From Elusimicrobia bacterium RIFCSPLOWO2_12_FULL_59_9 (GTDB taxonomy: Bacteria; Elusimicrobiota; Elusimicrobia; O2-12-FULL-59-9): DNA of 50,369 bases. Each line of letters starts with the position of its first letter. The stretch's first letter is position 1. The notes under the pieces are model-generated. The model made no database searches. It saw only the letters and a program-made list of their open reading frames with translations, and was not told where the DNA came from. The translations under genes were made by a program, and so were the position numbers. Shown piece after piece: positions 12,244 to 29,736 of this stretch. The DNA lies in NCBI GenBank assembly GCA_001800185.1, contig MGUX01000066.1:1-50369 (forward strand). The letters run 5' to 3'.

Positions 12244-12251
12244 GGCATTTT

Positions 12252-12680: not shown

Positions 12681-12796
12681 GATGACTCCTAAATCGTGAC
12701 CGGCCCCGCGGAGCGGGCTTCTCCCTTTTCGGGATCGGGATGCGCGGATTGCGCACCGCGCCGGTCTTTATTAAGAACCGCTAATGCTCCGGCGGC

Positions 12797-17127: not shown

Positions 17128-17155
17128 CGCATTTAGCGAACGGCGAGGGGGTTGG

Positions 17156-17171
17156 TGCAACGAAATTGCCA
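17156..17171 (-). promoter_or_regulatory. Sigma54 promoter P3 for the kinase/regulator operon
   Basis: The minus strand reads TGGCAATTTCGTTGCA, identical to P1. It lies 29 nt upstream of the ATG at 17127. Confidence 0.7.
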
Positions 17172-17273
17172 TATAGGGGAAAGTGTTCGAGTGGTCCAGT
17201 GGTCGAGTGGTAGAGTGGTCCATTACGGCGGCATGGCTGCCGCTCCGTGATCGGATCATGGAGCGTTGCGGGA
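17156..17273 (-). repeat. Copy B of the shared promoter-upstream module
   Basis: It contains four tandem AGTGGTC-N octamers (17185-17216 region). The near-palindrome CTCCGTGATCGGATCATGGAG is at 17243-17263. It aligns with 5764-5905. Confidence 0.8.
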
Positions 17274-17283
17274 AAAGCAGCGC

Positions 17284-18561
17284 TCAAGCCGCGTCCCGGA
17301 AGTTTCCATGCCACACAGTCTTCGACTCAATATTCATGGCGGCAGACTCGCGCGGTGTAAGCTGCCCGGTCAGCACCGGGATGGTCATCTTCAGCAATAT
17401 AGTATAGAGCAGCATCCCGAAGCCCCATATCCCGGCGCAAATCAGCCATTCGTTGAGGGTCGGGAAGTACTCGACTATCTCGCCCAGGGGGCTGGGGATG
17501 AAGGCCGGGATAACCATGCCCATCCCCTTCTCGATCCAAATGCCCACGATGGCCAGCACACAAGCCAAGCTCAGGTATCTTAGACGGCGCGAGAACGGCA
17601 GCACCAGCAGGATGAGGGCCGCCGAATCGAGAACCATGGCTGTCCATATCCAAGGCACGAGGCCGTAGTGGCCGTGGAGGCCGAAGAATAAGTACTTGGC
17701 CGAGGCCACATGGGCTGAGTCGGTATAGAATTCCTTAAAAAGCTCGCAAAGCAAGAGGAAGACATTGATGATCATCGAGACCTGAACGATGTCCCGGAGC
17801 ATGAAGAGCGCCTTGTCAGTGACCTTGTAGGAGGACAGGCGGCGGATGACTTGCAAGGTCAGAATGAGGAAGCCCGGTCCGGCCGTGAAGGCCGAGGCCA
17901 AGAAACGCGGGGCCACGATGGCTGAGTTCCAGAAAGGCCGCCCCCCCAGGCCGACATAGAGAAATGCCGTCACGGTATGGATGCTGATAGCCCAGAACAT
18001 GGCGATGAAAACGAAGGGGATGTACCAGATTTTGGCCGGCTTGCGCTTGAGATACACCATATAGACCAAGTAGCCGGAGATTTGGACGTTCAGGGCCAGG
18101 TAGCCGTTGAGGACGATGACGTCCCAGCTCAGCATGGAGATGGGCCAATTAAACTTGCCGATCCCCGGAATCATATGCCAGAACCGGTCCGGGCGGCCCA
18201 GGTCCGCGGTGACGAAGAGCAGGCACATAACGATGACCGCCACGGCCAAGAGCTCGCCGAATATGACCACGTCGTGCAGCGTCTCGTCTTTGTAGACATA
18301 GACCGGCACCACCAGCATCACCGCGGCCGCCGCCATCCCCACAAGGAAGGTGAAGTTGGCGATATAGAGTCCCCAGGAGACCTGGTCGCTCATGCCGGTG
18401 ACGGTGAGGCCGGCGACGAGCTGCTTGCAGTAGGCGTTGAGCCCCAGAAGGGACACGGCTGTCAGTGCCGTCATCCATAGGTAGTAACGCCAATCCCCGT
18501 CGAGGGTCTTGCGGGCGCAGCGCCCGACGAATACCGCGTAGTCCTTGATGGCTTGGGTCAT
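17284..18561 (-). CDS. NrfD/PsrC-family membrane subunit (DsrP/HmeB/ActF-like)
   Basis: 425 aa with about 10 TM helices. The N-terminal pattern GLTVTGMSDQVSWGLYIANFTFLVG matches the NrfD-type first helices. It follows its FeS partner after a 2-nt gap. Confidence 0.85.
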   Translation of the reverse strand: MTQAIKDYAVFVGRCARKTLDGDWRYYLWMTALTAVSLLGLNAYCKQLVAGLTVTGMSDQVSWGLYIANFTFLVGMAAAAVMLVVPVYVYKDETLHDVVIFGELLAVAVIVMCLLFVTADLGRPDRFWHMIPGIGKFNWPISMLSWDVIVLNGYLALNVQISGYLVYMVYLKRKPAKIWYIPFVFIAMFWAISIHTVTAFLYVGLGGRPFWNSAIVAPRFLASAFTAGPGFLILTLQVIRRLSSYKVTDKALFMLRDIVQVSMIINVFLLLCELFKEFYTDSAHVASAKYLFFGLHGHYGLVPWIWTAMVLDSAALILLVLPFSRRLRYLSLACVLAIVGIWIEKGMGMVIPAFIPSPLGEIVEYFPTLNEWLICAGIWGFGMLLYTILLKMTIPVLTGQLTPRESAAMNIESKTVWHGNFRDAA

Positions 18562-18563
18562 GG

Positions 18564-19493
18564 TTAGAGGTTGAAGTAGTAGTAGAACCGGGGTAAAGTG
18601 CCGACCTCCTCCTTAAGGACATACACCCTTTTAGTTTTGATGATGTTGGCGATCTCGCTGTCGGGATCGAGAAGGTTGCCGAACTTGCGCGAGCCTGTGG
18701 GACAGACTTCGACGCAGGCCGGGTACTTGCCCTTTCGGGTGCGGTGCAGGCAGAAGTGGCACTTCTCCACGACGCCCTTTGGACGCGGCCGGTTGGAGAG
18801 GTAACCCATCTCCGGATTAAGTTCGTCTTTGGGGATCTCGGGCTTCTCAAAGTTGAAGCGCCGCGCCCCGTAGGGGCAGGCGGCCATGCAATAGCGGCAG
18901 CCGATGCACCAGTTGTAGTCGATGACCACGATGCCGTCGGGCTCCTGCCAGGTGGCCTGCACGGGGCAGGCCTTCACGCAGGGCGCCTTGCGGCACTGGT
19001 GGCACTGCACCGGCATGTAATAGAAGCCGTCCTTGGGGACCTCGCCCTCGTAGTCGGTCTTGGCGCTCTCCACGTCGATGGAACCCTTGCGCATCTGCAG
19101 GACACGGATGTATTGGATCTGAGGATTGCGCGACTGGTTGTTCTCCTTGGCGCAGGCGTACACGCACTTGCGGCAGCCGATACAGCGGCCGATGTTGAGG
19201 GCGTAGCCGAACTCGACGCCGGGAATGGGAGGAGGGTCGGTGACATTGGGGCGCACGCCGTAGTCCTTCTCGACCTGCGCGGCGATCCGTTCGAGAATGG
19301 CCTTCTTGTCCTCAGGGGTGAGCTCCTTGTAGTGCAGGCGGAGGAATTCCTCCAAAGTCGGCAGATCGACGACGTCTTTGAGGGGGGACAAGGCGGCCGC
19401 CGTGGCCGTCACGGCGCTGGTGGTCAACGCGGCCAGGAAGGCCCGACGAGAGATCTCATTGGCCGGTTCGCCCGGCTTGCGTTCCTCAGACAT
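18564..19493 (-). CDS. Tat-exported 4Fe-4S cluster protein (NrfC/DsrO/HmeA-like)
   Basis: 309 aa with the signal ISRRAFLAALTTSAVTATAAA. Cluster motifs are CIGCRKCVYAC, CHQCRKAPC, CIGCRYCMAACP and CHFC...CVEVCP. Confidence 0.9.
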   Translation of the reverse strand: MSEERKPGEPANEISRRAFLAALTTSAVTATAAALSPLKDVVDLPTLEEFLRLHYKELTPEDKKAILERIAAQVEKDYGVRPNVTDPPPIPGVEFGYALNIGRCIGCRKCVYACAKENNQSRNPQIQYIRVLQMRKGSIDVESAKTDYEGEVPKDGFYYMPVQCHQCRKAPCVKACPVQATWQEPDGIVVIDYNWCIGCRYCMAACPYGARRFNFEKPEIPKDELNPEMGYLSNRPRPKGVVEKCHFCLHRTRKGKYPACVEVCPTGSRKFGNLLDPDSEIANIIKTKRVYVLKEEVGTLPRFYYYFNL

Positions 19494-20134
19494 CAGTCGA
19501 GTCCTCCGTGGTTTTCGGCGCCGGCTGTCTTGCCGCCCTTAGCGCGTGTGCGCGGGTTGATATGGGGCGGCGGAGCGGCCTTCAGGGGCTTGAAGATGGG
19601 CCAGTGCGGGTTGTGGCAGGCGATGCAGACCTGAGTCTTGAGGGGGCCCTTAGCAGTGTCCCAAAAGCCGCTGCGCCGTCCATGGATGCCCAGGCCCCAG
19701 TCACGGTAGATCGTGCCGTGGCACTTCGCGCAGAGCAGTTGGATATTGTCGAGCTTGATGGGGCTGCCGTCGAAATTGGAGAAGTCCGCCGGCTGCATGC
19801 GGTGGTGGCAGTTGAAACAGTGCTGGTTGCGGCCGTGCTTAAGCTCAATGTGTTCATGGAAAATCCCCTTCTCATGGGGATTTCCCTGGAGCGGTTCGGC
19901 GCCCTCGTGGCAGGCCTGGCATGGAGCGCCATCGAAGGTCATCTCCGTGCGGACTTTGCGCACGGTGGAGGGGTCGGCGTATTCCGGGGATAGCTTGGGA
20001 ATGTCGTCGCGGCCCGGTCCTTTGCCGATGAGGTCCTTCGTGAAGACCACGGCCAGAGCGAGCAGGCAGGCGACGGCCGCGCCGGCGGCCGCCAAAGGAA
20101 TTCTCTTCGAGCCTTCGTCACGGTCCAAGGTCAT
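19493..20134 (-). CDS. Membrane-anchored tetrahaem cytochrome c (c3 family)
   Basis: 213 aa with an N-terminal TM helix. Four CxxCH motifs are present (CQACH, CFNCH, CAKCH, CIACH). Confidence 0.8.
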   Translation of the reverse strand: MTLDRDEGSKRIPLAAAGAAVACLLALAVVFTKDLIGKGPGRDDIPKLSPEYADPSTVRKVRTEMTFDGAPCQACHEGAEPLQGNPHEKGIFHEHIELKHGRNQHCFNCHHRMQPADFSNFDGSPIKLDNIQLLCAKCHGTIYRDWGLGIHGRRSGFWDTAKGPLKTQVCIACHNPHWPIFKPLKAAPPPHINPRTRAKGGKTAGAENHGGLD

Positions 20135-20910
20135 TTTCGCCCGGAGGCATCTTCCTTGTGCGCCTCAACGTAAAGGGTCTTGAGTTCCACCAAGAGGTCC
20201 TGGGAGCGGGGCAGGAGCTTCTTAAAGTCGAACTCATGCCAGAACCGGATGACGTCTTCGTAGGCCTTGTCGACCTTGGCCATTGCCCCGGGTTTCTTGA
20301 TGGACTTGTAGTAGAACTTGAGGCCCTTGCGGTATCCGTTGGCATGGTTGAGCCGCTCGAGAATCTCTTCGGCCTGGGCGATGACCTCGGGGTGGTTCTT
20401 GGTCCTGGGGTTGTGGCAGTTCTTGCAGGCCCGCTGGAGAATGGTCTTGGAATAGACGCGCGTGTTGAGCGAGCCGTGGCAGGTGATGCAATTGGGCCCT
20501 CGCCCCGCGGCATTCAACTGGTCGTAGTGTCGGCTCATGGCGAAGCGCGCGAGAATGGGCGCGTGGCAGTTGCCGCAGGTCTTTGGGATGTTCTTAAAAT
20601 AGAACGGGCTGTTAGGATTGGATTGAGGGAGGATGCCCTTATGAGCTTCCTCCTTGGATGCCTTAGTTGGTTCGCCGTTATGACAGGCCGTGCAGGAGAG
20701 CCCCGCTAAATCATGGGCGGAGCCGCTCCATTCCCGGTAGTAGTTGTATATCTTTTTATTCTGGACGCGGAATTTCTCATCCTGGTGGCACTCGCGGCAA
20801 GACTCGCGAGGCTCGGCGGCCACGACTTGTTGTCCCCAGGGAATCGACAGCAGGACCAAGAACAGGGCGGCTTGGACCATGAGCCTCGTGTTCTTCATTA
20901 AAATCGCCAT
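20131..20910 (-). CDS. Periplasmic pentahaem cytochrome c with a non-haem helical C-terminal domain
   Basis: 259 aa with a signal peptide. Five CxxCH motifs are present (CRECH, CTACH, CGNCH, CITCH, CKNCH). The last roughly 90 aa carry no haem motif. Confidence 0.8.
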   Translation of the reverse strand: MAILMKNTRLMVQAALFLVLLSIPWGQQVVAAEPRESCRECHQDEKFRVQNKKIYNYYREWSGSAHDLAGLSCTACHNGEPTKASKEEAHKGILPQSNPNSPFYFKNIPKTCGNCHAPILARFAMSRHYDQLNAAGRGPNCITCHGSLNTRVYSKTILQRACKNCHNPRTKNHPEVIAQAEEILERLNHANGYRKGLKFYYKSIKKPGAMAKVDKAYEDVIRFWHEFDFKKLLPRSQDLLVELKTLYVEAHKEDASGRK

Positions 20911-20917: not shown

Positions 20918-21394
20918 TTAATCGGGGTTTGGAGGTCTTGATTGGTTTGCGAACAAATCTTTGAGTTTTTCCTGCTGAGCCTGGAATTCGCCCTGCTTTA
21001 AGATTTTCCTGACCTTGGAATCGTAGGTGAGAAAGTCCATGATCCTTTCCTCATCCGCCTTGCTCAATTCGATTCCGCGGCCTTTCATCTTGAGATGCAT
21101 CCTGCGCACATAGCGCTTCCAGACGTCCGCCTCCATGTACGGAGAGTTCAGGGGACGCGCCGTCGTATGGCAGGAGCCGCAGACGCCCAGGAAGAACCGG
21201 TAATTCGCCTTCTGATTCTCGGGGTAGCCGGACACGTCCACGGTGGGGGAGCCCAGGTCGTAGTAAAACGGCGGGACGGCCTTTGCGGAGGCAGCCGGGT
21301 TCTTCGGCGAGGGGGATTCTTCTTTTCCGCCGCAGGCCGCCAAGGAGAGCCCCGCAAGAAGGAGGACGATGAGGCCCGACGTTCGTATCCTCAT
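20918..21394 (-). CDS. Small monohaem cytochrome c lipoprotein, family copy 2 (ActE-like position)
   Basis: The ORF track extends to 21637, but ATG 21394 overlaps the upstream stop (ATGA). That start gives MRIRTSGLIVLLLAGLSLAAC with the lipobox LAAC. The core is YPENQKANYRFFLGVCGSCHTTARPLNSPY...FLTYDSKVRK. Confidence 0.75.
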   Translation of the reverse strand: MRIRTSGLIVLLLAGLSLAACGGKEESPSPKNPAASAKAVPPFYYDLGSPTVDVSGYPENQKANYRFFLGVCGSCHTTARPLNSPYMEADVWKRYVRRMHLKMKGRGIELSKADEERIMDFLTYDSKVRKILKQGEFQAQQEKLKDLFANQSRPPNPD

Positions 21395-22959
21395 GATGGG
21401 AAATAGGTGCGGATTCTCGCCACGACTTCCCCCTCGGCCTGCTCCTTTCCCTCCCGCACCTCCCAAATGGAGACGATGGGGAACACTCGGGTAAACATCG
21501 CATAGAGCATGACAAACGTCGAGATGCATCCCGCGAAGAGCGATATCTCCACCCAACTGGGCGTGTAGCCGCCGGTCGTATAGGGCAGCCGGGGTCGGAT
21601 CAAAGTGGGCACCACGATCAGAAATCTCTCCAGCCACATGCCCACGATCACAGTCGATGAAGCGATCACCGTCCCTCGGACCGTCTTCCCCAAGGGGGAG
21701 ACCAGGACGCCGAAGGGAACTACGAAGCAGGTGACGGCCATCAGCCAGAATGCGGGAGCGTAGGGCCCGCTGATCTTCAAGTTAAAGATCACCATGTGCT
21801 CGGGCTCGCCGCCGTACCAGGTCGTCAGGTATTCGGAGAACGTGAAGTAGAACCAGAGGCAGCACATCACCAGCAAGAGCTTGCCTAGATTCTCGAAGTG
21901 TATCGCCCGGAGATGGTTCTCCAGGCCATAGCCCTTGCGGAGCACCGCCATGGCGATGATGAGCGCCGCGATCCCCGAGAAGATGGCGCCGACCACGAAG
22001 TAGGGGCCAAAGATGGTCGAGTGCCACATCGGCTGGACCGTCATGCTGAAGACGTAGGAAACCACCGTGTGGACGCTGACGGCGACGGGAATCACCAGGA
22101 TGGCCATGATGGCGATGCATTTCTCCAACACTTCCCGTTCCTCGTGGCTGCCGCTCCAGTTCAAAGAAAGCAACTCGTAAAGGGGCTTGCGCCAGCCTTG
22201 AGCGCGGTCTCTGAGGATGGCGATGTCCGGGATAAGGGGAAGGTAGAGATAGAGGGTGCTGCCGATAAGATAGGTGGTGATGCTGCAGACGTCCCACATC
22301 AGCGGCGATTGAAAACGGCCTGCAAGAAAGACGTTAAGAGCGCGATCGGGACGGCCCAGATCAAGGATGATGTTGCCCGCCCCGAAGACGAGTACTAGGA
22401 CCGTGATCACCTCCGCCGAACGCGTGATGGAGCGCCGCCACTCCGCCTGGACGATCCTGAGTATGGCTGAGATCAGCGTTCCCGCGTGCGAGATGCCGAT
22501 GAAAAAGACGAAATTGGTGATGTAGAATCCCCAAAAGACCGGATTATTGAGACCCGTCACCGCGAGCCCGTAATACATCTGGTAGCACCAGGCGAAGATC
22601 GCCCAAAGGCTCACGCAGGTCAGGACCGCCATGGTCGCGAGGAATCCCCCCGTGGGCGCTTCGAAGATGGGGGCCACCAGGACTTCCTCCTCAGGGAATA
22701 TCTCCAGGGGGGCGGGGCTTTTTCCGCTTTTTGTTTTCCGCAACGCGATCTTGAAGAAAAGACGGGAGATGATCCAGGAAAGGATGATGAAGATGGGGCC
22801 GATGATGCTGCCCATGACCACGGCCGGCAGCCAGGCGTCGCCGAGCCGGTACGACGCGGCGGCGCGCCAGACGAACCAGCCGTTGGCCGCGACCGCGAAC
22901 GCGCAGAAGCCGGCGAAGCCCGCAAGCTGAACGTAAAAGGTCCAGTTCCTTGGTCTCAT
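21391..22959 (-). CDS. NrfD/PsrC-family membrane subunit (ActC-like) with an extra N-terminal roughly 110-aa TM extension
   Basis: 522 aa. From NPVFWGFYITNFVFFIGISHAGTLIS onward it is collinear with 5916-7274. The extra N-terminal segment holds 2-3 hydrophobic helices. Confidence 0.85.
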   Translation of the reverse strand: MRPRNWTFYVQLAGFAGFCAFAVAANGWFVWRAAASYRLGDAWLPAVVMGSIIGPIFIILSWIISRLFFKIALRKTKSGKSPAPLEIFPEEEVLVAPIFEAPTGGFLATMAVLTCVSLWAIFAWCYQMYYGLAVTGLNNPVFWGFYITNFVFFIGISHAGTLISAILRIVQAEWRRSITRSAEVITVLVLVFGAGNIILDLGRPDRALNVFLAGRFQSPLMWDVCSITTYLIGSTLYLYLPLIPDIAILRDRAQGWRKPLYELLSLNWSGSHEEREVLEKCIAIMAILVIPVAVSVHTVVSYVFSMTVQPMWHSTIFGPYFVVGAIFSGIAALIIAMAVLRKGYGLENHLRAIHFENLGKLLLVMCCLWFYFTFSEYLTTWYGGEPEHMVIFNLKISGPYAPAFWLMAVTCFVVPFGVLVSPLGKTVRGTVIASSTVIVGMWLERFLIVVPTLIRPRLPYTTGGYTPSWVEISLFAGCISTFVMLYAMFTRVFPIVSIWEVREGKEQAEGEVVARIRTYFPS

Positions 22960-23783
22960 GCTCCTTCCTTCAAATAGGTCACTTTGGGTTCGGCGCCCAG
23001 TTCTTCCAAAAGATGGAAGGCGCGGGGGTCCTTGGAGAGGTTGGCCGCGTCGCTGTCGTTGTTATTGAGATCCCCGAAGACGATGGCTTTCGCGGGACAA
23101 ATCTCCGCGCAGGCGGGCTGGTAATCATTTTCCCGCAGTGGCCGTCCCTCCGCCACAGCTTCCTCCTTGGCCCGTTGCAGGCGATGGTGGCAGAAGAGGC
23201 ACTTCTCAACCACGCCTTTGGGACGAATCGAGACGTCGGGATTAAAGGAGGCCTGCATCTCCTTCGGCCAGACCGGCGCTTTCCAGTTGAAGTCCTTGCA
23301 GGTGTAGGGACAGGCGTTGAGGCAGTAGCGGCAGCCGATGCAGCGCGAATAGACCTGGCCCACGATCCCTTCCTCGTTGCGAAACGTGGCGTAGACCGGG
23401 CACACCTTGGTGCAGGGGGGGGTGTCGCATTGCTGGCAGGGCATGGGCAGAAGCCTCTGCTTCGGCGCGGGAAACTCCCCCTCCTGAGAGGGAAGAATCT
23501 TGAGCCAACGGATGATCCTGCCCATCGCGGCTTCTTGAGGGTTTCCCAATGCCAGGTTGTTTTCCGTGGAGCATGCCACCACGCAGGAGCCGCACCCGGT
23601 GCACTTGTCCAGATCGATCACCATCCCCCAACGGTGCTCCCCCGGCTTGAGAGGCCTCTTGCCATGCCCCGCATCCCCAGGCGCGGTCCCCCACGCTTTG
23701 CCGATTCCACTCAGTAAGAACACGCCGAGAGTTCCAAGGAGACCCCGAAGGAATCCGTTGCGAGAGGTCGTCAAGCTTTCCAT
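22956..23783 (-). CDS. 4Fe-4S ferredoxin-type subunit (ActB2-like), paralog of 7271-8077
   Basis: 275 aa with the same four Cys-cluster pattern (CTGCGSCVVAC, CQQCDTPPC, CIGCRYCLNACP, CLFC...CAEICP). The Tat motif is degenerate (SRNGFLRG). Confidence 0.9.
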   Translation of the reverse strand: MESLTTSRNGFLRGLLGTLGVFLLSGIGKAWGTAPGDAGHGKRPLKPGEHRWGMVIDLDKCTGCGSCVVACSTENNLALGNPQEAAMGRIIRWLKILPSQEGEFPAPKQRLLPMPCQQCDTPPCTKVCPVYATFRNEEGIVGQVYSRCIGCRYCLNACPYTCKDFNWKAPVWPKEMQASFNPDVSIRPKGVVEKCLFCHHRLQRAKEEAVAEGRPLRENDYQPACAEICPAKAIVFGDLNNNDSDAANLSKDPRAFHLLEELGAEPKVTYLKEGA

Positions 23784-25813
23784 AGCTTCACCTCGGTCCC
23801 TTCCTCGCCTATCTCCAACGGGTTGGAGCCCAAGCCCTTGGCCCAGCGTCCGTAGCCGGCATGTCCCAATCCAACGGGGAGGCTGACCACTCCGGGCATG
23901 GCCGCCCGGGACAGACGCGCCCTGGCCTTGATCTTCCCTCTCCGGGATTCGACCCAGATCGCTTCTCCGTCCGATAGCCCCGGAAGCGAAGCGGTTTCAG
24001 GGTGCATCTCCGCCCAGGTCTCCCACGCCTCCTGCGTCTGAGGTCCCGCGACGCTTTGCAGATAGGGGAGATGCGCGCCCTCTCCGAAGGAAAAGGCGAG
24101 GGGCGCGTAAAGGTGCAGATGGAGAGGAAACCCCCCGTCCTCCCGCGCCTTTTTAACGTCCTGCAGTTTCAAAATGTCCGTCAATGCGTCGAACTCAAAC
24201 TTTCCCGAGCGGGTCGCATGGGGCTTGCCGGAGGCAGCAGCGCTCATCTCCCGCCAGATCTTTCCCCCGCTGCTTTCATGGAACATCTTTTCTGCCCGCA
24301 GTTTCTTCATATGGCCCATGACGTAGGAGTCAAAATCCGCTGGAACTCTCGTCCCAGCCAAAGCTCGCGTCAACGCCAGGAATATATCCCCGGGGTCCTT
24401 GGTCGCGTAGAGCGGCGCCACCGCTTCGGGGGCGGCGCCCAAGACCGCGCTCCCGTTCGCGGACACATGGAAAGAACAGTGGCCTCTTTCCAGGGGCGTG
24501 TGGCAGGGCAACACGAGATCGGAAGATAGCGCCGTCTCGTTTAGAAAAGAAGAGACCGTCGCCACAAAGGGCGTTTTCGCCACGATCTCTTTCCATCCCG
24601 ACGGCGACAGAAAGAGAGGATCGACACGATCGACCAGAAGCAGTTCCGGCGGCCGCGCCTGGAGACTTTGGTCGGCCAAGCCGTCCGCCCAAAAGCCTTC
24701 CCGTCCCTCCATCCCTGAGAATACGCCCCCCGTGCCGATGTTCCCCAAGAGGGCGTTGAGCGCGTGGACTGCCATCTGGGTCAGCAACGGCCCGCGGTTG
24801 GTGATGGCTGCCGCGGGTTTGAGGCTGGAGAGCTTGACCGCCAGCAAACGGATCTCCTTTTCGGGGACTTCCGTTGTCTTTGAAACATCATCAAGAGAAA
24901 GGGCGTCCAGGCTCTTTTTGAAGGCCTCGAAACCCCGGGACTGCGCGTGGATGAAGGCCTTGTCGTAGGTCTCATTGGCGATCAACTGCTTGGCCAGGAT
25001 CAACGCCAGAAGACCTTCCGTCCCGGGCCGGACGGGTACCCATTGGTCCGCCTTGCCCGCGGTCACGGAGAACCTCGGCTCGATCTGGACGATTTCGGCG
25101 CGGTCTCGAGACGGCCCTCGCCGAAGCTGCGCGAAAGCCATCTGCGCCTCGACCGGAGACGGGTAGGACTGGAGCCAGTCGAATCCAAAGGAGACCAGGA
25201 GCTTTGCGCGGCTCATGTGGAAAGCCACTCGGCGGCTTCCATGCATTCTCTCGTAAGCGTCGCTGGGAAACTCAGACTTGGGAAAGCCTAGGGCGAAAAA
25301 ATTATCCTTGCCTATGGAATCGGCCAAGCCCCGGAGCGCCTCGCCTTGTATGTCCCACGCCCGCGCCCGCGTTAGCGCGGCCAGCGGCTTAATCTTGCTC
25401 CCTGACTTCGCGCGGGTGATCTTCTCCGAGAGGGCGCGCAGGGCCTCATCCCAGGAGATCTCTTTCCACTCCCCGGATCCACGGGGGCCGCGTCTGAGCA
25501 GGGGAGTCCTCAGTCGATCTGGATGGTAGAGCTCTTGCAGGGAGGCCGCGCCCTTGGGACAGAGCCCGCCCTGATTGATCGGATGATCCGGGATCCCCGA
25601 GATTCCGACGGCATGGCCGTCGACCTTGCGCACGCGGATGCCGCAGCCCGCCGGACACAACCCGCAGATGGTGTAGGCGAAGCCCTCTTCCCCCATGGGC
25701 GGCGGCGCGTCTTCCTTGGGCGTGAGCACCGCCTTCTTGGCCCAGACCGGCAAGGCGGAGGTCAAGCCAGAGAAAATGCCGAACTTGAAGAAATTTCTTC
25801 GGGATATTTCCAT
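23771..25813 (-). CDS. Molybdopterin-oxidoreductase-like large subunit (ActB1-like), paralog of 8067-10217
   Basis: 680 aa with the Tat signal ISRRNFFKFG. The FS0 motif CGLCPAGC...LCPKG is present, and the protein is collinear with the 716-aa paralog. Confidence 0.85.
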   Translation of the reverse strand: MEISRRNFFKFGIFSGLTSALPVWAKKAVLTPKEDAPPPMGEEGFAYTICGLCPAGCGIRVRKVDGHAVGISGIPDHPINQGGLCPKGAASLQELYHPDRLRTPLLRRGPRGSGEWKEISWDEALRALSEKITRAKSGSKIKPLAALTRARAWDIQGEALRGLADSIGKDNFFALGFPKSEFPSDAYERMHGSRRVAFHMSRAKLLVSFGFDWLQSYPSPVEAQMAFAQLRRGPSRDRAEIVQIEPRFSVTAGKADQWVPVRPGTEGLLALILAKQLIANETYDKAFIHAQSRGFEAFKKSLDALSLDDVSKTTEVPEKEIRLLAVKLSSLKPAAAITNRGPLLTQMAVHALNALLGNIGTGGVFSGMEGREGFWADGLADQSLQARPPELLLVDRVDPLFLSPSGWKEIVAKTPFVATVSSFLNETALSSDLVLPCHTPLERGHCSFHVSANGSAVLGAAPEAVAPLYATKDPGDIFLALTRALAGTRVPADFDSYVMGHMKKLRAEKMFHESSGGKIWREMSAAASGKPHATRSGKFEFDALTDILKLQDVKKAREDGGFPLHLHLYAPLAFSFGEGAHLPYLQSVAGPQTQEAWETWAEMHPETASLPGLSDGEAIWVESRRGKIKARARLSRAAMPGVVSLPVGLGHAGYGRWAKGLGSNPLEIGEEGTEVKLWKA

Positions 25814-25817
25814 TTCG

Positions 25818-26318
25818 TTACTTATGGCAAGCCAGGCAGTCGTTGGTCACCTTCATCCTGTGGTGGCAGCCCATACAGCGCGCCATGCTGATAGTCACCG
25901 CTTGCCGCGTGACCGGCGCCTCCACCTTGGACATGTCGCCGTGACAGAGGGCGCAGTCCAGTTTGGCTAACCCCACGTGCCTGCGGTGGGAAAAATAGAC
26001 GTGGGTCGGCACGTTGTAGACCTTCTTCCAGGGGATCGGCTTGTTGGCCGAGACATAGTCGCGCACGGCTTTGGCTCTTGGATTTTCGTCATCGGAGGTG
26101 TGGCAGGCCGCGCAGACCTCCACCGTGGGAAGCCCTCCGCGCGCCTTCCCATCAGCGATGCCTGTGTGGCAGCCGGCGCACTCCAATCCCAGGGCGATGT
26201 GCTTCTTGTGGTTGTAAGCGACGGGTTGTTTTTTAGATCCCGACTGGTAACCGGCCAGCAAAAGCCAGACGAGGCCGATGAAGGCTAGGGACAAAACGGC
26301 CGCCGCAAGGTCTTTCAT
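25818..26318 (-). CDS. Membrane-anchored pentahaem cytochrome c (ActA-like), paralog of 10235-10744
   Basis: 166 aa with an N-terminal TM helix. Five CxxCH motifs are present (CAGCH, CAACH, CALCH, CMGCH, CLACH). Confidence 0.85.
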   Translation of the reverse strand: MKDLAAAVLSLAFIGLVWLLLAGYQSGSKKQPVAYNHKKHIALGLECAGCHTGIADGKARGGLPTVEVCAACHTSDDENPRAKAVRDYVSANKPIPWKKVYNVPTHVYFSHRRHVGLAKLDCALCHGDMSKVEAPVTRQAVTISMARCMGCHHRMKVTNDCLACHK

Positions 26319-26355
26319 CTATTTCCTTTTGCCGCAAGATGAAGTTCATTCCCGC

Positions 26356-27249
26356 CTACGGCGTTGAGGAAGCCGAGCCTCCCTTGACTCCAGGGTCGCC
26401 CGCGTACTCTTTGGCCAAAGAGGTAATTCCGGTCATGGCTCCTAGACCCATGGTTTCCACGGCGCTGGAGGGAACGACCACGATGGTGGAGCTCTTCCGC
26501 ATTCCTTCCAAAAGAATGTTCATGGCGCGAAGGTGAAGCGCGACGGGGCTATTGACGTAGGCCTTGGAAGACTCCTCAAAGACCTTCGAAACCTGTCGCT
26601 CCGACTCCGCCAAAATAACCCTGGCTTGTCGCTCCCTTTCCGCTTGAGCCTGCATGGACATCGCGTTCTGCAGGCTTGAAGGGATTTTCACATCACGGAT
26701 CTCCACTGACAGAGCCTTGATGCCCCAGACCTCCGTTCGCTGCTCGATCATCTCGCAAAGGTCCTTGTCGATTTTTTCTCTTCCCCGGAGCATTTCCGAG
26801 AGGTCGGTTTTGCCGATTACGTCCCGCAGGGCGGTCTGGCTGGACCAAGCAATGGCCTGCTGGTAATCCTCCACTTCGAGGGCCGCCTTCTTAGGATCCA
26901 CCACCCGCCAGAAAAGCACCGCGTCCACGTCCACCGGCACGCTGTCCTTGGTCAATGTTTCTTCCGCGGTAAAGGGGGTGGTGATCGTCCTCAAATCTAT
27001 CCAGTAGGGGATGGTATCCACGAAGGGAATGACGCCGAATAGGCCCGGCCCCCGCAGATCGTGGAACTTTCCCATCCGGAGGATCACCGCCTTCTGCCAT
27101 TGGCGCGCGACGCGCACGGCCAAAAAGAACAAGATGGCGAAAAGCGCGATGGCGGCCCCTACGGTTGGATTTTCGAATCGGACGCTCAACGCTCCCCCCG
27201 CGGCAAGCATCAAAACAAACAAAAGCACCGTAAATGGATGGATTCCCAT
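26356..27249 (-). CDS. SPFH/band-7 membrane scaffold protein, paralog of 10772-11677
   Basis: 297 aa. The RBS AGGAGG lies 7 nt upstream of the ATG. The sequence is nearly collinear with the first copy. Confidence 0.9.
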   Translation of the reverse strand: MGIHPFTVLLFVLMLAAGGALSVRFENPTVGAAIALFAILFFLAVRVARQWQKAVILRMGKFHDLRGPGLFGVIPFVDTIPYWIDLRTITTPFTAEETLTKDSVPVDVDAVLFWRVVDPKKAALEVEDYQQAIAWSSQTALRDVIGKTDLSEMLRGREKIDKDLCEMIEQRTEVWGIKALSVEIRDVKIPSSLQNAMSMQAQAERERQARVILAESERQVSKVFEESSKAYVNSPVALHLRAMNILLEGMRKSSTIVVVPSSAVETMGLGAMTGITSLAKEYAGDPGVKGGSASSTP

Positions 27250-27303: not shown

Positions 27304-27319
27304 TGCAACGAATTGGCCA
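27304..27319 (-). promoter_or_regulatory. Sigma54 promoter P4 for the second SPFH/ACIII-like operon
   Basis: The minus strand reads TGGCCAATTCGTTGCA. It lies 55 nt upstream of ATG 27249 and 13 nt after the stop of the upstream gene. Confidence 0.65.
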
Positions 27320-27331: not shown

Positions 27332-28570
27332 TTACCGCTTTCCCAGGGACTTCATATAAGCCACCAAAGCCCGGATCTCATCGTCTCGAAGATCGAGCTT
27401 TGGCATGGAAGAGCCGGGGCTCACGGCCTGGGGGTCGCGGAAGTGTTTCGTGAGCCACTCTTCTGCCTTCTTGCCGGCCACTTTATCCAATTCAGGTCCA
27501 ACGACCCCGCCCCTTGCATTGAGCTTGTGGCAGTAGGCGCAGTTCAAGTTGCGGTAAAGCCTCCGCCCCGCCAAAACCAGGGGGTCCTTTTCGGCGGCGG
27601 CAGCGGCAGGCGGGCCGTTGAATTTCTGGGCGGCGATGTAGCGGGCCAAGTCCTCTATCTGCGTGTCGGCCAACTGGCCCTTGAACCCCGGCATGGTGGA
27701 GGACTGGTTCAGTTGGGTAGGATCCAGGATATATTTCTTGATGTAGGTTTTGTCGCGAGCGGAACCGATGAGAGAGAGGTCGGGACCCCCGTCCCCGCCC
27801 TCCCCGCCGATGCGGTGGCAGGCGGCGCAATTGTCGGCAAAGAGTTTGGGCGCTTCGCCCGTGAAGGGCCCGCCGGCCAGAGACTTCATGTAGGCGACCA
27901 GGGCTTGAATCTCATCATCCAAAAGATTGAGTTTGGGCATCTCGGATCCCGGGTTCGCGGCTTTGGGATCGCGAAGGTGTTTTACCAACCAATCCTCCGT
28001 CTCCTCCCCGACCACCTTGTCCAACTCCGGGCCGATCTCACCCCCTTTGCCTCCAATCCTGTGGCAGTAGGCGCAGTTCAAAGCGCGGTAAAGCCGCGTC
28101 CCGGCCATCACCGCCGGGTCTTTTTCGATCACCGGGTTGAGCATGGGGCTTTTGGCGCCGTAATAGGTCAGAAGCCCAATGCCCGTCAAAGCGGCCAAGC
28201 CCAGGCTCAGCCAAAAAGGCCGATTCAAGGGGTGCCTTTCAGGCGAGCGGTCCAAGAAGGGCAGAAACAAGAGCACGCCGGCCGCCGCGCCCGGAAGGAT
28301 GACGGCGGCCACGGCTTCCAATTTACCGGGAAAGAATTTGAGGGCCTGGAATATGAACAGAAAATACCATTCAGGGCGAGGATTGTAGGTGCTGTCGGTG
28401 GGGTCGGCCAGATCTTCCAGAGGGGCGCCGAGTTTCAAGGCCAGAACGCAAAGAGCCGCCAGGATCAAGGCCGCGACGCAGATATCCTTGAACACCGCAT
28501 ACGGGAAAAAAGACTGGCCTTTTTCCTTCAATTCCTTGTATTGCTTTAAGTAATCCTGTCTCCAACTCAT
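27332..28570 (-). CDS. Cytochrome b C-terminal (subunit IV-like) domain fused to three monohaem cytochrome c domains
   Basis: 412 aa. The N-terminal part has TM helices and the PEWYF motif (YNPRPEWYFLFIFQ). Then come CAYCHRIGGKGG, CAACHRIGGEGG and CAYCHKLNARGG. Haem domains 1 and 3 are clear internal duplicates. Confidence 0.85.
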   Translation of the reverse strand: MSWRQDYLKQYKELKEKGQSFFPYAVFKDICVAALILAALCVLALKLGAPLEDLADPTDSTYNPRPEWYFLFIFQALKFFPGKLEAVAAVILPGAAAGVLLFLPFLDRSPERHPLNRPFWLSLGLAALTGIGLLTYYGAKSPMLNPVIEKDPAVMAGTRLYRALNCAYCHRIGGKGGEIGPELDKVVGEETEDWLVKHLRDPKAANPGSEMPKLNLLDDEIQALVAYMKSLAGGPFTGEAPKLFADNCAACHRIGGEGGDGGPDLSLIGSARDKTYIKKYILDPTQLNQSSTMPGFKGQLADTQIEDLARYIAAQKFNGPPAAAAAEKDPLVLAGRRLYRNLNCAYCHKLNARGGVVGPELDKVAGKKAEEWLTKHFRDPQAVSPGSSMPKLDLRDDEIRALVAYMKSLGKR

Positions 28571-28573
28571 GGA

Positions 28574-29248
28574 TTATTGGTCTTTGCGGCGCGGAGTTTC
28601 CGAGATGCCGTGCCAGACCACCAAAAACAGGTGCAGGCCCACAAACAGAATCAGCAGCGCCGGAAGCACCAGCACATGGAAAGCGTAGAAACGGCTCAGG
28701 GTCAGCGCCCCCAAAACATCTCCGCCCTTAAGCACCTTTCCTATGTAGGGTCCCAGCGTGGGAACCTGCGCCGCGATATTGGTTCCTACGGCGGTCGCCC
28801 AGTAGGCTTTCTGGTCCCAGGGCAGCAGATAGCCTGTAAAACTGAAGCCCATGACCACCATAAACAAGGCGACGCCCGCCATCCAAGTTCCTTCGCGGGG
28901 ATACTTGTAGGCCCCCATAAAAAACACTCTCAGCATGTGCAGGGCGACGATCACCACCATGAAGCTGGCTCCCCAGTGGTGAAGTCCGCGCACGAAACTT
29001 CCCAGGAGCACTTCCCGTTCTATGTAGCGGATGGAATCGTAGGCGTGGTCCGGCGAGGGGACATAGTTCATCGCCAGAAGCATGCCGGTCAGAGCTTGAA
29101 CGGCGAACAGGAGCAGGCTGGCGCTGCCCAAGGTGTAGAGCCATGCCTGCCAGCCGGACGCTTCCGGGATGCGGCGGTCCAAAAGGGCTTCCTTCACCTT
29201 TTTCCAACCGGTGCGCTCGTCCAATTCGCTCAAAAATTTAGCGATCAT
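28574..29248 (-). CDS. Cytochrome b (b6-type N-terminal four-helix subunit)
   Basis: 224 aa with the His-bearing helices GLHHWGASFMVVIVALHMLRVF and RFYAFHVLVLPALLILFVGLHLFLV. The YLLPWDQ motif (consensus LPWGQ) is also present. Confidence 0.9.
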   Translation of the reverse strand: MIAKFLSELDERTGWKKVKEALLDRRIPEASGWQAWLYTLGSASLLLFAVQALTGMLLAMNYVPSPDHAYDSIRYIEREVLLGSFVRGLHHWGASFMVVIVALHMLRVFFMGAYKYPREGTWMAGVALFMVVMGFSFTGYLLPWDQKAYWATAVGTNIAAQVPTLGPYIGKVLKGGDVLGALTLSRFYAFHVLVLPALLILFVGLHLFLVVWHGISETPRRKDQ

Positions 29249-29736
29249 GCCTTGCCGGATTCGAGAGCTTGAGGGATGATTTGCAGGCGCTCGCGCACCA
29301 CTTTGACGGGAAAGCGGTCCAGGGGTCTGGGAGGAGGGCCGGAGACGACGCGGCCGTCAACGGCGAAAGTGGCCGTGTGGCAGGGGCACAAAAATTGCTT
29401 TTTGTCGGCATCCCAGCGGTAAGGGCATCCCAGATGGGTACAGCGGGGGTCGAAGGCCACAAAATCCCTTCCATTGGAGGTCAAAAACCAGGCCGAAGAC
29501 CTGGTTTCCACCGTCATCCAGCCGTCTTTTTTTCTCTGGGTAAATTCCAATTTGACCGGGGCGCCCCGGGAAACTTCCCGTACCGAGCCGACATCGATCC
29601 AGCCCTCGTCTTCTTTTTTGAAGGCGGGAGACAGAAAATAGCCCGTCCCCGTTCCTCCCAGCACCAAGCCGATGGCCGCCGAGAGCGAGGCGATGATCCA
29701 CTGCAAAAACGTACGGCGGCTCACTTCATTTTCCAT
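29245..29736 (-). CDS. Rieske [2Fe-2S] iron-sulfur subunit
   Basis: 163 aa with a Tat-like signal (SRRTFLQW) and a TM anchor. Rieske boxes CTHLGC and CPCHTATF are present. Confidence 0.9.
   Translation of the reverse strand: MENEVSRRTFLQWIIASLSAAIGLVLGGTGTGYFLSPAFKKEDEGWIDVGSVREVSRGAPVKLEFTQRKKDGWMTVETRSSAWFLTSNGRDFVAFDPRCTHLGCPYRWDADKKQFLCPCHTATFAVDGRVVSGPPPRPLDRFPVKVVRERLQIIPQALESGKA

What the first reader, a model, noticed from the sequence alone, without database searches (positions are those of the whole stretch)
21391..27249. Duplicated SPFH-ActA-ActB1-ActB2-ActC cassette; the SPFH scaffold is the best-conserved member
The five-gene order at 5916-11677 is repeated at 21391-27249. By eye the two SPFH proteins are about 80% identical over the whole domain. 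The pentahaem, molybdopterin-like and FeS partners are only roughly half identical.

An SPFH/stomatin-type scaffold as the first cistron of an ACIII-like operon is not part of the canonical actABCDEF description. Its stronger conservation suggests a constrained, shared role, for example organising respiratory supercomplexes or membrane microdomains. ActB is also split into separate molybdopterin-like and FeS genes in both copies.
Basis: partly seen in the sequence, partly recalled or inferred. Interest (0 to 1): 0.7.

Follow-up and report, generated by a model that had tools for sequence, protein, structure and literature searches.

The report
Stomatin gene wired to respiratory complexes
A distinct branch of the stomatin (SPFH) membrane-scaffold family sits next to genes for quinone-linked cytochrome complexes in this groundwater Elusimicrobia contig and in every assessable relative from several other labelled phyla, which points to a likely natural client for a bacterial stomatin.

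Summary
Two minus-strand cassettes (10772-11677..5916 and 27249..21391) share the order SPFH, five-haem cytochrome, molybdopterin-like protein, FeS protein, NrfD-type membrane subunit. Amino-acid identities are SPFH 73-75% (85% over the SPFH domain), FeS 61-63%, NrfD 46-49%, Mo-like 42-44% and cytochrome 43%.

The duplication is old. Synonymous sites are saturated in all five pairs. There is no sign of gene conversion, and the two SPFH copies were never sisters in 100 bootstraps.

Cassette 1 lies in an 11.4-kb module flanked by ~140-bp direct repeats. That module is missing from a relative whose shared proteins are mostly 91-99% identical.

The complexes are ACIII/Qrc-family. The NrfD, FeS and cytochrome subunits match ActC, ActB and ActA best. 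ActD and ActF are absent, and a split ActB is already known from iron oxidisers.

The slow evolution of SPFH is a family-wide trait, not something special to this locus.

The linkage is real and conserved. Of slipins in the window's clade with enough flank, 25 of 25 sit beside NrfD-type cytochrome complexes, in four gene arrangements and several labelled phyla. In the sister clade the count is 0 of 26. My full-text searches found no paper describing this.

Most likely the slipin is a dedicated scaffold or assembly partner of the NrfD-type membrane subunit; the mechanism is inferred.

The parts
26356..27249 (-). SPFH2: stomatin-type slipin, first cistron of cassette 2
   Evidence: Pfam Band_7 3.1e-37. 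Human stomatin 1.6e-44, PH1511 5.5e-42, QmcA 8e-31. GGAGG Shine-Dalgarno sequence. Clade-i slipin.
27304..27319 (-). sigma-54-like -24/-12 box TGGCCAATTCGTTGCA in the gap between the cyt b/c gene and SPFH2
   Evidence: The same box lies 74 nt upstream of SPFH in L005, and a similar one upstream of SPFH in L010. This is a consensus match only.
25818..26318 (-). Membrane-anchored five-haem cytochrome c, ActA/QrcA-like (cassette 2)
   Evidence: Five CxxCH motifs and one N-terminal TM segment. ActA 8k9e_A 4.4e-24. QrcA 96.8 bits, below the 180 cut-off.
23771..25813 (-). Molybdopterin-fold subunit, ActB1/QrcB-like, with a twin-arginine leader (cassette 2)
   Evidence: Pfam. QrcB 259 bits, below the 440 cut-off. 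Four FS0 cysteines (CX2CX3CX27C) are invariant, while the Mo-ligand column is variable: Lys here, aligned to the ArrA Cys.
22956..23783 (-). Four-cluster FeS subunit, ActB2/QrcC-like (cassette 2)
   Evidence: ActB C-terminal domain 6f0k_B 1.1e-59. QrcC 297 bits, below the 400 cut-off.
21391..22959 (-). NrfD-type membrane subunit, ActC-like, with an extra N-terminal ~70 aa carrying two predicted TM segments (cassette 2)
   Evidence: ActC 6f0k_C 1.6e-75. Pfam NrfD. Hydropathy.
20918..21394 (-). Monohaem cytochrome (158 aa) with a lipobox-like LAAC; its start overlaps the NrfD2 stop (ATGA); paralogue of 12252-12680
   Evidence: No PDB or NCBIfam match. Homologues follow NrfD in L010, L013 and L024.
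10772..11677 (-). SPFH1: stomatin-type slipin of cassette 1
   Evidence: Pfam Band_7 2e-34. GGAGG before the ATG at 11677. Groups with L013 and L023 in the NJ tree, with moderate bootstrap support of 65 and 54 of 100.
10235..10744 (-). Five-haem cytochrome, ActA/QrcA-like (cassette 1)
8067..10217 (-). Molybdopterin-fold subunit, ActB1/QrcB-like (cassette 1)
7271..8077 (-). FeS subunit, ActB2/QrcC-like (cassette 1)
5916..7274 (-). NrfD-type membrane subunit, ActC-like (cassette 1)
11698..14071 (-). Genes upstream of SPFH1 on the same strand: Cyc2-like fused monohaem cytochrome-porin (12797-14071), monohaem cytochrome (12252-12680), cytochrome c (11698-12243)
   Evidence: One CxxCH each. AF2 model of the 424-aa protein shows a signal helix plus 16 long beta strands, pLDDT 68.7. 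The same gene run precedes SPFH in L013 and L023, and a similar one in L165 and L003. A sigma-54-like box TGGCCAATGTGTTGCC lies upstream.
14219..17259 (-). Histidine kinase and sigma-54-dependent response regulator heading the cassette-1 module
   Evidence: Pfam. The same pair heads the module in L003, L023 and L165.
5764..5905 (.). Right copy of a ~140-bp direct repeat (sigma-54-like box, tandem octamers, 44-nt block) bounding the 11.4-kb cassette-1 module
17156..17273 (.). Left copy of the same direct repeat
   Evidence: In L005, NrfD3 is followed directly by ResB.
17284..20910 (-). Third NrfD-type complex: two multihaem cytochromes, DsrO-like FeS and DsrP-like NrfD. This is the type that carries the slipin in other genomes.
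   Evidence: Pfam. DsrP 423 bits, above the 350 cut-off; DsrO 177 bits, below 200. Slipin adjoins this type in L001, L002, L007, L008, L085, L086, L089 and L168.
27332..29736 (-). Rieske / split cytochrome b / cyt b C-terminal part fused to three cytochrome c domains, directly upstream of SPFH2
   Evidence: Pfam. The same juxtaposition occurs in L005, L092, L105 and L117, and Rieske/cyt b genes lie downstream in L167.

Best explanation
**The cassettes.** Each encodes a periplasm-facing, quinone-interacting electron-transfer complex of the ACIII/Qrc family. It has four parts:
- a membrane-anchored five-haem cytochrome (ActA-like);
- a Tat-exported molybdopterin-fold protein that keeps the FS0 [4Fe-4S] cysteines but has no conserved Mo ligand (ActB1/QrcB-like);
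- a four-cluster ferredoxin (ActB2/QrcC-like);
- a polytopic NrfD-type subunit (ActC-like) that carries the quinone site.

**The SPFH gene.** It encodes a stomatin-type slipin from a distinct clade whose members are genomically tied to NrfD-type cytochrome complexes. Those complexes are either this ACIII/Qrc-like type or a DsrOP-like type.

**Proposed mechanism (inferred).**
- Like human stomatin, E. coli QmcA and HflK/C, the slipin would be anchored by an N-terminal helical hairpin.
- Its SPFH domain would sit on the cytoplasmic face, judged from three positive charges after the second helix.
- It would oligomerise into a ring or cage that delimits a membrane patch around the only polytopic subunit, the NrfD/ActC protein.
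- The effect would be to aid assembly or stability, or to tune quinone or proton handling.

**Electron flow (inferred).** In the cassette-1 module, electrons probably pass between a Cyc2-like outer-membrane cytochrome-porin, two small periplasmic cytochromes and the complex, as proposed for iron oxidisers. The direction is not known.

**Shown here:** gene content, homologies, conserved linkage, age of the duplication. **Inferred:** physical interaction, topology, oligomeric state, electron direction.
For: **Family assignment**
- Pfam and NCBIfam hits.
- PDB hits: ActC 1.6e-75, ActB C-terminal domain 1.1e-59, ActA 4.4e-24.
- The Mo ligand Cys of ArrA and PsrA aligns to Lys or Gly, in a column that varies across 13 homologues; the four FS0 cysteines are invariant.

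**Slipin identity.** Human stomatin 1.6e-44 over residues 34-258; PH1511 and QmcA also match.

**Linkage, seen from the slipin**
- The NJ tree splits slipins into two clades with 100/100 bootstrap support.
- In the window's clade, 25 of 25 members with enough flank adjoin NrfD-type complexes: 14 directly upstream of the ActA-like gene, 1 downstream of NrfD, 7 at the end of a DsrOP-like cluster, and 3 at the head of one.
- In the sister clade the count is 0 of 26 (Fisher p = 4e-15, not corrected for phylogeny).
- Sister-clade neighbours are heterogeneous.

**Source labels.** These contexts come from genomes labelled Elusimicrobia, Planctomycetes, Omnitrophica, Nitrospirae, Betaproteobacteria and Anaerolineales. 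One further context (L165) has no label of its own; related slipin clusters are named Acidobacteriota.

**Operon signals**
- Gaps of 27 and 37 nt here; a 4-nt overlap in L003.
- Strong Shine-Dalgarno sequences.
- No terminator-like site in either gap.
- A sigma-54-like box upstream of SPFH2, L005 and L010.

**Constraint.** SPFH has the lowest dN of the five pairs, 0.19. It is the best-conserved protein in 9 of the 10 orthologous cassette comparisons I tabulated.

**Precedent.** Mitochondrial SLP-2 and prohibitins promote respiratory supercomplex formation (PMC7246575).
Against: - No experiment or interaction data exist. Every slipin-positive locus is from a metagenome-assembled genome or a metagenome contig.
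- The linkage is patchy when viewed from the cassette. Only 8 of 68 assessable species-representative cassettes carry the slipin: 8 of 10 with Mo-like identity of at least 46% to the window, and 0 of 58 below that. The close Elusimicrobia loci L012 and L032 lack it. The slipin is therefore dispensable for this type of complex.
- All redox subunits are periplasmic, while the SPFH domain is predicted to be cytoplasmic. Contact would be limited to the membrane subunit or the TM anchors.
- The AF2 model of the slipin was unusable (pLDDT 46). Topology rests on sequence rules alone.
- The high conservation of SPFH carries no locus-specific information.
Confidence: 0.6

Rival explanations
1. The slipin works mainly as a protease-control device. 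Like HflK/C with FtsH, or SLP-2 with mitochondrial AAA proteases, it would cage a membrane protease and so set the turnover of the cofactor-rich NrfD-type complexes. It would not scaffold the complex itself.
For: HflK and HflC are detectable homologues (4e-10; NCBIfam hflK 67-74 bits, below cut-off). SPFH proteins of mitochondria act through AAA proteases (PMC7246575). No NfeD partner is present, so a different protease partner is conceivable.
Against: No FtsH or other protease gene lies in the window or in any of the annotated clade-i loci. The protein is far closer to stomatin, PH1511 and QmcA than to HflK/C. This reading overlaps with the best explanation and cannot be separated from it by sequence.
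Confidence: 0.2
2. Adjacency has no specific function. The slipin would be a general membrane-stress or housekeeping gene that travelled with these operons by descent or by transfer of whole islands.
For: Many slipin-positive loci are from related groundwater Elusimicrobia. The whole HK / sigma-54 regulator / Cyc2-like / cassette module looks mobile, so some repeated adjacency reflects a single ancestry. The slipin is absent from most cassettes.
Against: The slipin occupies four different positions relative to two different types of NrfD complex, in several labelled phyla. It always stays next to an NrfD/FeS/cytochrome set. The sister clade has none in 26 assessable loci. Rearrangement that still keeps the genes adjacent is hard to explain by hitch-hiking.
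Confidence: 0.1
3. The excess similarity of the two SPFH copies comes from gene conversion or recent duplication within this genome.
For: SPFH is the most similar pair at 69% nucleotide identity; the other four pairs are 52-63%.
Against: dS is saturated (2.99). Identical-codon use among identical residues is 0.44, the same as the other four pairs. The longest identical run is 17 nt, against 29 nt in the Mo-like pair. The two copies are sisters in 0 of 100 bootstraps, and each groups with orthologues from other genomes.
Confidence: 0.02
4. The cassettes encode true molybdoenzymes, such as an arsenate-, thiosulfate- or polysulfide-type reductase with a cytochrome partner, rather than cofactor-less ACIII/Qrc-type electron-transfer complexes.
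For: The best solved-structure matches of the Mo-like subunit are ArrA (5e-39) and PsrA (7e-30); ActB scores only 2e-11. The FS0 cysteines are kept. PhsA is the second-best NCBIfam hit.
Against: The residue aligned to the Mo-ligand cysteine is Lys or Gly here, and the column varies among homologues (K, L, W, S, P). The only full-length family match is QrcB. The partner subunits match ActC, ActB and ActA best. Iron-oxidiser ActB1 proteins have the same FS0 motif (PMC4643136).
Confidence: 0.08

Closest known systems
Alternative complex III (ActABCDEF), including the actAB1B2CDEF variant of neutrophilic iron oxidisers
   Same: Five-haem ActA-like cytochrome, ActC-like NrfD subunit (1.6e-75) and ActB-like FeS module (1e-59). 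ActB is split, and ActB1 carries CX2CX3CX27C exactly as described for iron oxidisers (PMC4643136). A Cyc2-like protein and small cytochromes sit nearby, as in the iron-oxidiser electron-transfer model.
   Different: No ActD and no second NrfD-type ActF in either cassette. An ActE equivalent is at best the unrelated monohaem lipoprotein-like cytochrome at 20918-21394. A slipin gene is present, which no description of ACIII that I found mentions.
QrcABCD menaquinone reductase of sulfate reducers
   Same: The same four-gene order: cytochrome, Mo-like, FeS, NrfD. QrcA, QrcB and QrcC are the top NCBIfam hits. The molybdopterin-fold subunit has no Mo ligand.
   Different: All scores are below the equivalog cut-offs, and QrcD scores only 36-45 bits against a cut-off of 570. 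There are five haems rather than six. The FS0 cysteines are present, whereas the review table lists no cofactor for QrcB (PMC8076601). The organism shows no sulfate-reduction context in this window.
Stomatin / slipin homo-oligomeric membrane scaffolds (human stomatin, Pyrococcus PH1511, E. coli QmcA)
   Same: Full-length similarity across the SPFH domain, coiled coil and C-terminal motif. N-terminal hydrophobic hairpin. Very slow evolution (PMC2258279).
   Different: No NfeD partner gene, which I recall as the classical prokaryotic operon partner. Instead it is fixed next to respiratory NrfD-type complexes, and it forms a separate clade with its own signature residues (P92, S103, R115, K188, I245, L247, M250, G268).
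Mitochondrial SLP-2 and prohibitins as respiratory supercomplex assembly factors
   Same: An SPFH-family scaffold functionally tied to respiratory chain complexes (PMC7246575). Here Rieske/cyt b genes often adjoin the slipin-ACIII-like unit.
   Different: This is an analogy only. Those proteins act with AAA proteases and cardiolipin in mitochondria. Nothing here shows an interaction, and the clients differ.

Membership tests
Alternative complex III (ActABCDEF) | ActA: membrane-anchored pentahaem cytochrome c | tested here: met
   Five CxxCH motifs and one N-terminal TM segment in both copies. ActA chains 4e-24 to 4e-18.
Alternative complex III (ActABCDEF) | ActB: a single polypeptide fusing the molybdopterin-like (B1) and FeS (B2) domains | tested here: not met
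   Two separate genes in both cassettes. A split form is known in iron-oxidiser act clusters (PMC4643136).
Alternative complex III (ActABCDEF) | ActC: NrfD-type quinone subunit | tested here: met
   6f0k_C 1.6e-75, 6btm_C 1.3e-70.
Alternative complex III (ActABCDEF) | ActD, ActE and ActF (a second NrfD-like subunit) encoded in the cluster | tested here: not met
   Cassette 1 is followed by ResB and CcsA. Cassette 2 is followed by a monohaem cytochrome with no ActE similarity, then by a DsrOP-like complex. There is no second ActF-like gene beside either ActC-like gene.
QrcABCD | Gene order: cytochrome c, molybdopterin-like, FeS, NrfD | tested here: met
QrcABCD | Scores reaching the NCBIfam equivalog cut-offs for QrcA-D | tested here: not met
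   QrcA 88-97 bits against 180; QrcB 259-300 against 440; QrcC 276-297 against 400; QrcD 36-45 against 570.
QrcABCD | Hexahaem QrcA | tested here: not met
   Five CxxCH motifs. Six haems are listed for QrcA in PMC8076601.
QrcABCD / ACIII | Molybdopterin-fold subunit without a Mo cofactor | tested here: inconclusive
   The Mo-ligand position is not conserved. Cofactor content cannot be read from sequence.
Stomatin/slipin (SPFH superfamily) | Band_7/SPFH domain above the Pfam gathering score, with full-length similarity to solved stomatins | tested here: met
   119.6 and 128.8 bits against a cut-off of 23.6. Stomatin 1.6e-44, PH1511 5.5e-42.
Stomatin/slipin (SPFH superfamily) | N-terminal hydrophobic membrane anchor or hairpin | tested here: met
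   Two hydrophobic segments at residues 7-21 and 30-44. Helices 5-25 and 28-61 are the only confident part of the model.
Stomatin/slipin (SPFH superfamily) | Homo-oligomeric ring or cage | not testable with these tools
   Only monomer prediction was available, and it was poor.
Prokaryotic stomatin-NfeD operon | NfeD gene adjacent to the stomatin gene | tested here: not met
   No NfeD family among the window neighbours or in the annotated clade-i loci L001-L004 and L165-L168.
Cyc2 fused cytochrome-porin (context gene 12797-14071) | Signal peptide, a single N-terminal CxxCH, then a 16-strand beta barrel | tested here: met
   One CSQCH motif and a C-terminal ...EVGF. The model has 16 long strands, with pLDDT 68.7 overall and mostly 75-87 (some loop blocks lower) in the barrel.
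Cyc2 fused cytochrome-porin (context gene 12797-14071) | Sequence homology to a characterised Cyc2 | not tested
   No reference Cyc2 sequence or model was available. All 34 homologues are unnamed. Cyc2 has been reported in an Elusimicrobia genome (PMC8357290).

The most novel reading that the evidence does not exclude
Clade-i slipins are dedicated structural partners of NrfD-type respiratory complexes. A stomatin ring or cage would enclose the ActC/DsrP-like proton- and quinone-handling subunit, possibly together with the neighbouring Rieske/cyt b complex. It would control assembly, the local lipid and quinone environment, or ion leak. This would be the first prokaryotic stomatin with a defined, genetically hard-wired client, and a bacterial counterpart of SLP-2/prohibitin action on mitochondrial respiratory complexes.
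Probability: 0.35. Interest if true: 0.75.

Novelty: new variant of a known kind. Interest (0 to 1): 0.6.

Why it matters
What bacterial stomatins do, and which proteins they enclose, is still largely open, even though cage structures are now solved for stomatin, QmcA and HflK/C. A slipin clade that is always encoded beside one class of membrane complex offers a concrete client to test.

It also adds a candidate accessory factor to the ACIII/Qrc/DsrOP group of NrfD-type complexes. Their energy coupling is under active study. They are also proposed to carry 'uphill' electrons in Cyc2-type iron oxidation.

The locus shows as well that groundwater Elusimicrobia carry a dense, apparently mobile set of extracellular-electron-transfer genes.

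Tried and rejected
- **Gene conversion between the SPFH copies:** rejected.
- **dN/dS ratios:** not usable, because dS is saturated or undefined and YN00 failed.
- **AF2 model of the slipin** from an 11-sequence alignment: pLDDT 46, too poor for a fold search, so none was run.
- **ActE identity of the monohaem cytochrome 20918-21394:** no PDB or NCBIfam similarity.
- **NfeD partner:** not found.
- **Promoter and terminator scans:** counts at chance level. They are used only to note that no terminator-like site lies in the SPFH-cytochrome gaps.
- **Sigma-54 consensus search:** the total count equals chance (25 against 24.6). Only the intergenic, correctly oriented boxes are mentioned, as leads. 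My first regular expression for these boxes had the wrong spacer and was corrected.
- **Paper search for 'ActB1/ActB2':** returned only zebrafish actin papers.
- **Paper searches pairing SPFH, stomatin, slipin or band 7 with ACIII, Qrc, NrfD or Cyc2:** searches found no paper combining an SPFH-family term with ACIII, Qrc, NrfD or Cyc2. A broader search returned only reviews on cyanobacterial membranes, FtsH and mitochondria. That library lacks most subscription journals.
- **True molybdoenzyme reading:** considered and judged unlikely.

Full report
**Source.** The window is the 50,369-bp contig of the metagenome-assembled genome 'Elusimicrobia bacterium RIFCSPLOWO2_12_FULL_59_9'. An exact protein match names it, and its longest contig has the same length as the window. 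G+C content is 57-66%.

**1. Checking the observation**

All genes of interest lie on the minus strand. Pfam gives the same five domain types in the same order at both sites: Band_7/SPFH; multihaem cytochrome c; Molybdop_Fe4S4 + Molybdopterin + Molydop_binding; 4Fe-4S dicluster; NrfD.

Global alignments give these amino-acid identities:

| Pair | All aligned columns | Ungapped |
|---|---|---|
| SPFH | 73.0% | 74.5% |
| FeS | 61.3% | 62.7% |
| NrfD | 46.4% | 48.7% |
| Mo-like | 41.7% | 44.3% |
| Cytochrome | 42.6% | 43.6% |

- Within SPFH, the Band_7 region is 85% identical and the N-terminal hairpin 41%.
- dN ranks the same way: 0.19, 0.35, 0.48, 0.58 and 0.58.
- dS is saturated in every pair.
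- Both SPFH genes have GGAGG ribosome-binding sites. The ATG at 11677 is the likelier start of SPFH1.
- The gaps to the next gene are 27 and 37 nt, with no terminator-like site.

**2. What the four redox genes are**

- NCBIfam ranks QrcA, QrcB and QrcC first, all below their equivalog cut-offs. QrcD is weak.
- Against solved structures:
  - the NrfD subunit matches ACIII ActC (1.6e-75);
  - the FeS protein matches the C-terminal domain of ActB (1.1e-59);
  - the cytochrome matches ActA (4.4e-24);
  - the Mo-like subunit matches ArrA and PsrA better than ActB.
- The residue aligned to the Mo-ligand cysteine of ArrA and PsrA is Lys or Gly. That column varies among 13 homologues, whereas the four FS0 cysteines (CX2CX3CX27C) are invariant.
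- Kato et al. 2015 describe exactly this split ActB1/ActB2, with this motif, in the actAB1B2CDEF clusters of iron oxidisers (PMC4643136).
- Méheust et al. 2020 already annotated ACIII in lineage IV groundwater Elusimicrobia (10.1101/765248).
- No ActD or ActF gene is present.

The cassettes are therefore four-subunit members of the ACIII/Qrc family. The split ActB is not new.

**3. The duplication is ancient, and cassette 1 sits in an indel module**

- Each cassette has closer orthologues elsewhere:
  - cassette 2 against L005: shared proteins 91-99% identical;
  - cassette 2 against L007/L008: 64-76%;
  - cassette 1 against L013: 60-83%.
- In L005, a species-representative Elusimicrobia genome, the DsrP-like gene is followed directly by ResB and CcsA.
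- In the window an 11.37-kb block lies between them. It contains a histidine kinase, a sigma-54 regulator, a Cyc2-like protein, two small cytochromes, SPFH1 and cassette 1.
- That block is bounded by ~140-bp direct repeats (5764-5905 and 17156-17273). The repeats contain an identical sigma-54-like box, tandem octamers and a 44-nt block that is 98% identical.
- The same module, regulators included, occurs in a Planctomycetes genome (L003), in a contig with no label of its own (L165) and in Elusimicrobia (L023, L013).
- The pair is best read as two old paralogous lineages, one of them recently gained here or lost in the relative.

**4. Is the conservation of SPFH special?**

No.

- Slipins with about 70-75% identity to the window proteins occur under the labels Betaproteobacteria, Anaerolineales, Planctomycetes, Omnitrophica, Nitrospirae and Acidobacteriota.
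- The sister clade, which has unrelated neighbours, is at least as conserved (mean pairwise identity 0.76 against 0.70).
- Green and Young 2008 report 50% identity between bacterial and human stomatins (PMC2258279).
- Synonymous divergence in the SPFH pair equals that of the other genes. The two copies were never sisters in 100 bootstraps. Gene conversion is excluded.

**5. Is the linkage conserved?**

Yes, and this is the main result.

*From the cassette side.* I scanned one genome per species with a Mo-like alignment and ran tblastn with the window proteins.
- The four-gene cassette turned up in 80 loci, including Elusimicrobia, Armatimonadota (among them Candidatus Fervidibacter sacchari), Acidobacteriota, Nitrospirota, Geobacteraceae and Chloroflexi.
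- Of 68 loci with enough upstream sequence, 8 carry the slipin.
- These 8 are among the 10 loci whose Mo-like subunit is at least 46% identical to a window copy; none of the 58 more distant loci has it.
- L012 and L032 have the Cyc2-like gene run but no slipin.

*From the slipin side.* I scanned metagenome contigs with a slipin alignment, read contexts and built a tree.
- Two clades separate in 100 of 100 bootstraps.
- In the window's clade, all 25 members with enough flank adjoin an NrfD/FeS/cytochrome set.
- The arrangements number four:
  - SPFH directly upstream of the ActA-like gene (14);
  - SPFH downstream of NrfD (1, a Nitrospirae genome);
  - SPFH at the end of a DsrO-like / DsrP-like / cytochrome cluster (7);
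  - SPFH at the head of such a cluster (3).
- In the sister clade, none of 26 assessable loci is linked. Its neighbours are heterogeneous and include no NfeD.
- The window's own third complex (17284-20910) is of the DsrOP-like type. NrfD3 scores 423 bits on the DsrP model, above the cut-off of 350.
- Rieske/cyt b genes often adjoin the unit: in the window, L005, L092, L105, L117 and L167.

Adjacency that survives rearrangement across phyla and across two complex types argues for functional coupling. The shared element is the NrfD/FeS module with its cytochromes.

**6. Likely mechanism**

- The slipin aligns to human stomatin over residues 34-258 (1.6e-44), and to PH1511 and QmcA.
- It has two N-terminal hydrophobic helices followed by three positive charges. 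This places the SPFH domain in the cytoplasm by the positive-inside rule, which is an inference.
- The cytochrome, Mo-like and FeS subunits are periplasmic, judged from TM anchors and Tat-type leaders. The NrfD subunit is therefore the plausible contact.
- By analogy with solved stomatin, QmcA and HflK/C assemblies, I propose an oligomeric ring or cage that organises or stabilises the NrfD-type complex.
- A protease-control variant of this idea cannot be separated from it by sequence.

*Context of cassette 1.*
- A 424-aa protein has one CxxCH motif and a modelled 16-strand barrel.
- Two small cytochromes follow it.
- Sigma-54-like boxes lie upstream of the Cyc2-like gene and of SPFH2.
- This fits the Cyc2 / Cyc1 / ACIII scheme proposed for iron oxidisers (PMC4643136).
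- Cyc2 has been reported in an Elusimicrobia genome (PMC8357290).
- The direction of electron flow is unknown.

**7. Novelty**

- Full-text searches pairing SPFH, stomatin, slipin or band 7 with ACIII, Qrc, NrfD or Cyc2 found no paper that combines them.
- The library lacks most subscription journals, so this is absence of evidence, not proof.
- The complexes and the slipin family are both known; the dedicated pairing appears to be undescribed.
- I rate it a new variant of a known kind, of moderate interest. It mainly matters because it nominates a client for a bacterial stomatin.

**Limits**

- All evidence is genomic.
- Counts are not phylogenetically independent.
- The trees are neighbour-joining on a very conserved protein.
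- Taxon labels are those of the depositors.
- The slipin structure model failed.

Noticed in passing
window 5764-5905 and 17156-17273: A ~140-bp direct repeat flanks an 11.37-kb block (HK, sigma-54 regulator, Cyc2-like, two cytochromes, SPFH1, cassette 1). The repeat holds an identical TGGCAATTTCGTTGCA box, tandem octamers CACTCGAC/CACTGGAC and a 44-nt block that is 98% identical. A relative (L005) whose shared proteins are mostly 91-99% identical lacks the whole block. This points to a recent insertion, or to a recombination-mediated deletion in the relative.
   Followed up: partly
window 12797-14071 (-): A 424-aa protein with no Pfam or NCBIfam hit. It has a signal helix, a single CSQCH motif and a modelled 16-strand beta barrel ending in ...EVGF, which is the Cyc2-like fused cytochrome-porin architecture. 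All 34 homologues found are unnamed, mostly from Elusimicrobia genomes.
   Followed up: partly
window 34383-37541 (+): A DmsE/MtrA-family decahaem cytochrome (NCBIfam 265 bits, above cut-off) followed by an MtrB/PioB outer-membrane porin (Pfam 1.7e-111). This is a second, porin-cytochrome type of extracellular electron conduit on the same contig. An unannotated 187-aa ORF precedes it and FeoB follows.
   Followed up: no
window 30107-33633 (-): A run of large cytochromes: an 11-CxxCH cytochrome fused to a cytochrome b561-like membrane domain (613 aa), a NapC/NirT-type cytochrome (186 aa) and a cytochrome with about ten haem motifs (373 aa).
   Followed up: no
window 17284-19493 (-): The NrfD-type subunit scores 423 bits on the NCBIfam DsrP equivalog model (cut-off 350). 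No DsrMK or other sulfate-reduction gene is nearby. Its FeS partner is just below the DsrO cut-off (177 against 200). Automated annotation would probably call it DsrP, wrongly.
   Followed up: partly
window 27332-29736 (-): A Rieske/cytochrome b complex with a split cytochrome b, whose C-terminal part is fused to three monohaem cytochrome c domains. The same unit sits directly upstream of the slipin in L005, L092, L105 and L117.
   Followed up: partly
window 20918-21394 (-) and 12252-12680 (-): Two paralogous monohaem cytochromes with no match in Pfam, NCBIfam or the PDB. One overlaps the NrfD2 stop codon (ATGA) and has a lipobox-like LAAC. Homologues recur before or after the cassette in Elusimicrobia and Armatimonadota loci, including Candidatus Fervidibacter sacchari.
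   Followed up: partly
window 30087-30102 (-), 33688-33703 (+), 34305-34320 (+), 38551-38566 (+): Further TGGCA-N6-TTGCA boxes (sigma-54-like) lie in intergenic regions, correctly oriented upstream of the Rieske operon, the MtrAB-like genes and feoB. The contig-wide count equals chance, so these are leads only.
   Followed up: no
window 21391-22959 (-), residues 1-100: The cassette-2 NrfD subunit has an N-terminal extension of ~70 aa with two extra predicted TM segments that cassette 1 lacks. The tblastn match spans in L005 and L010 are of similar length, and the Nitrospirae locus L166 has a 555-aa NrfD.
   Followed up: no
window 41982-48401 (+): 2-oxoacid:ferredoxin oxidoreductase subunits, followed by a 1,188-aa HdrA-like flavoprotein fused to an MvhD/FlpD domain.
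   Followed up: no
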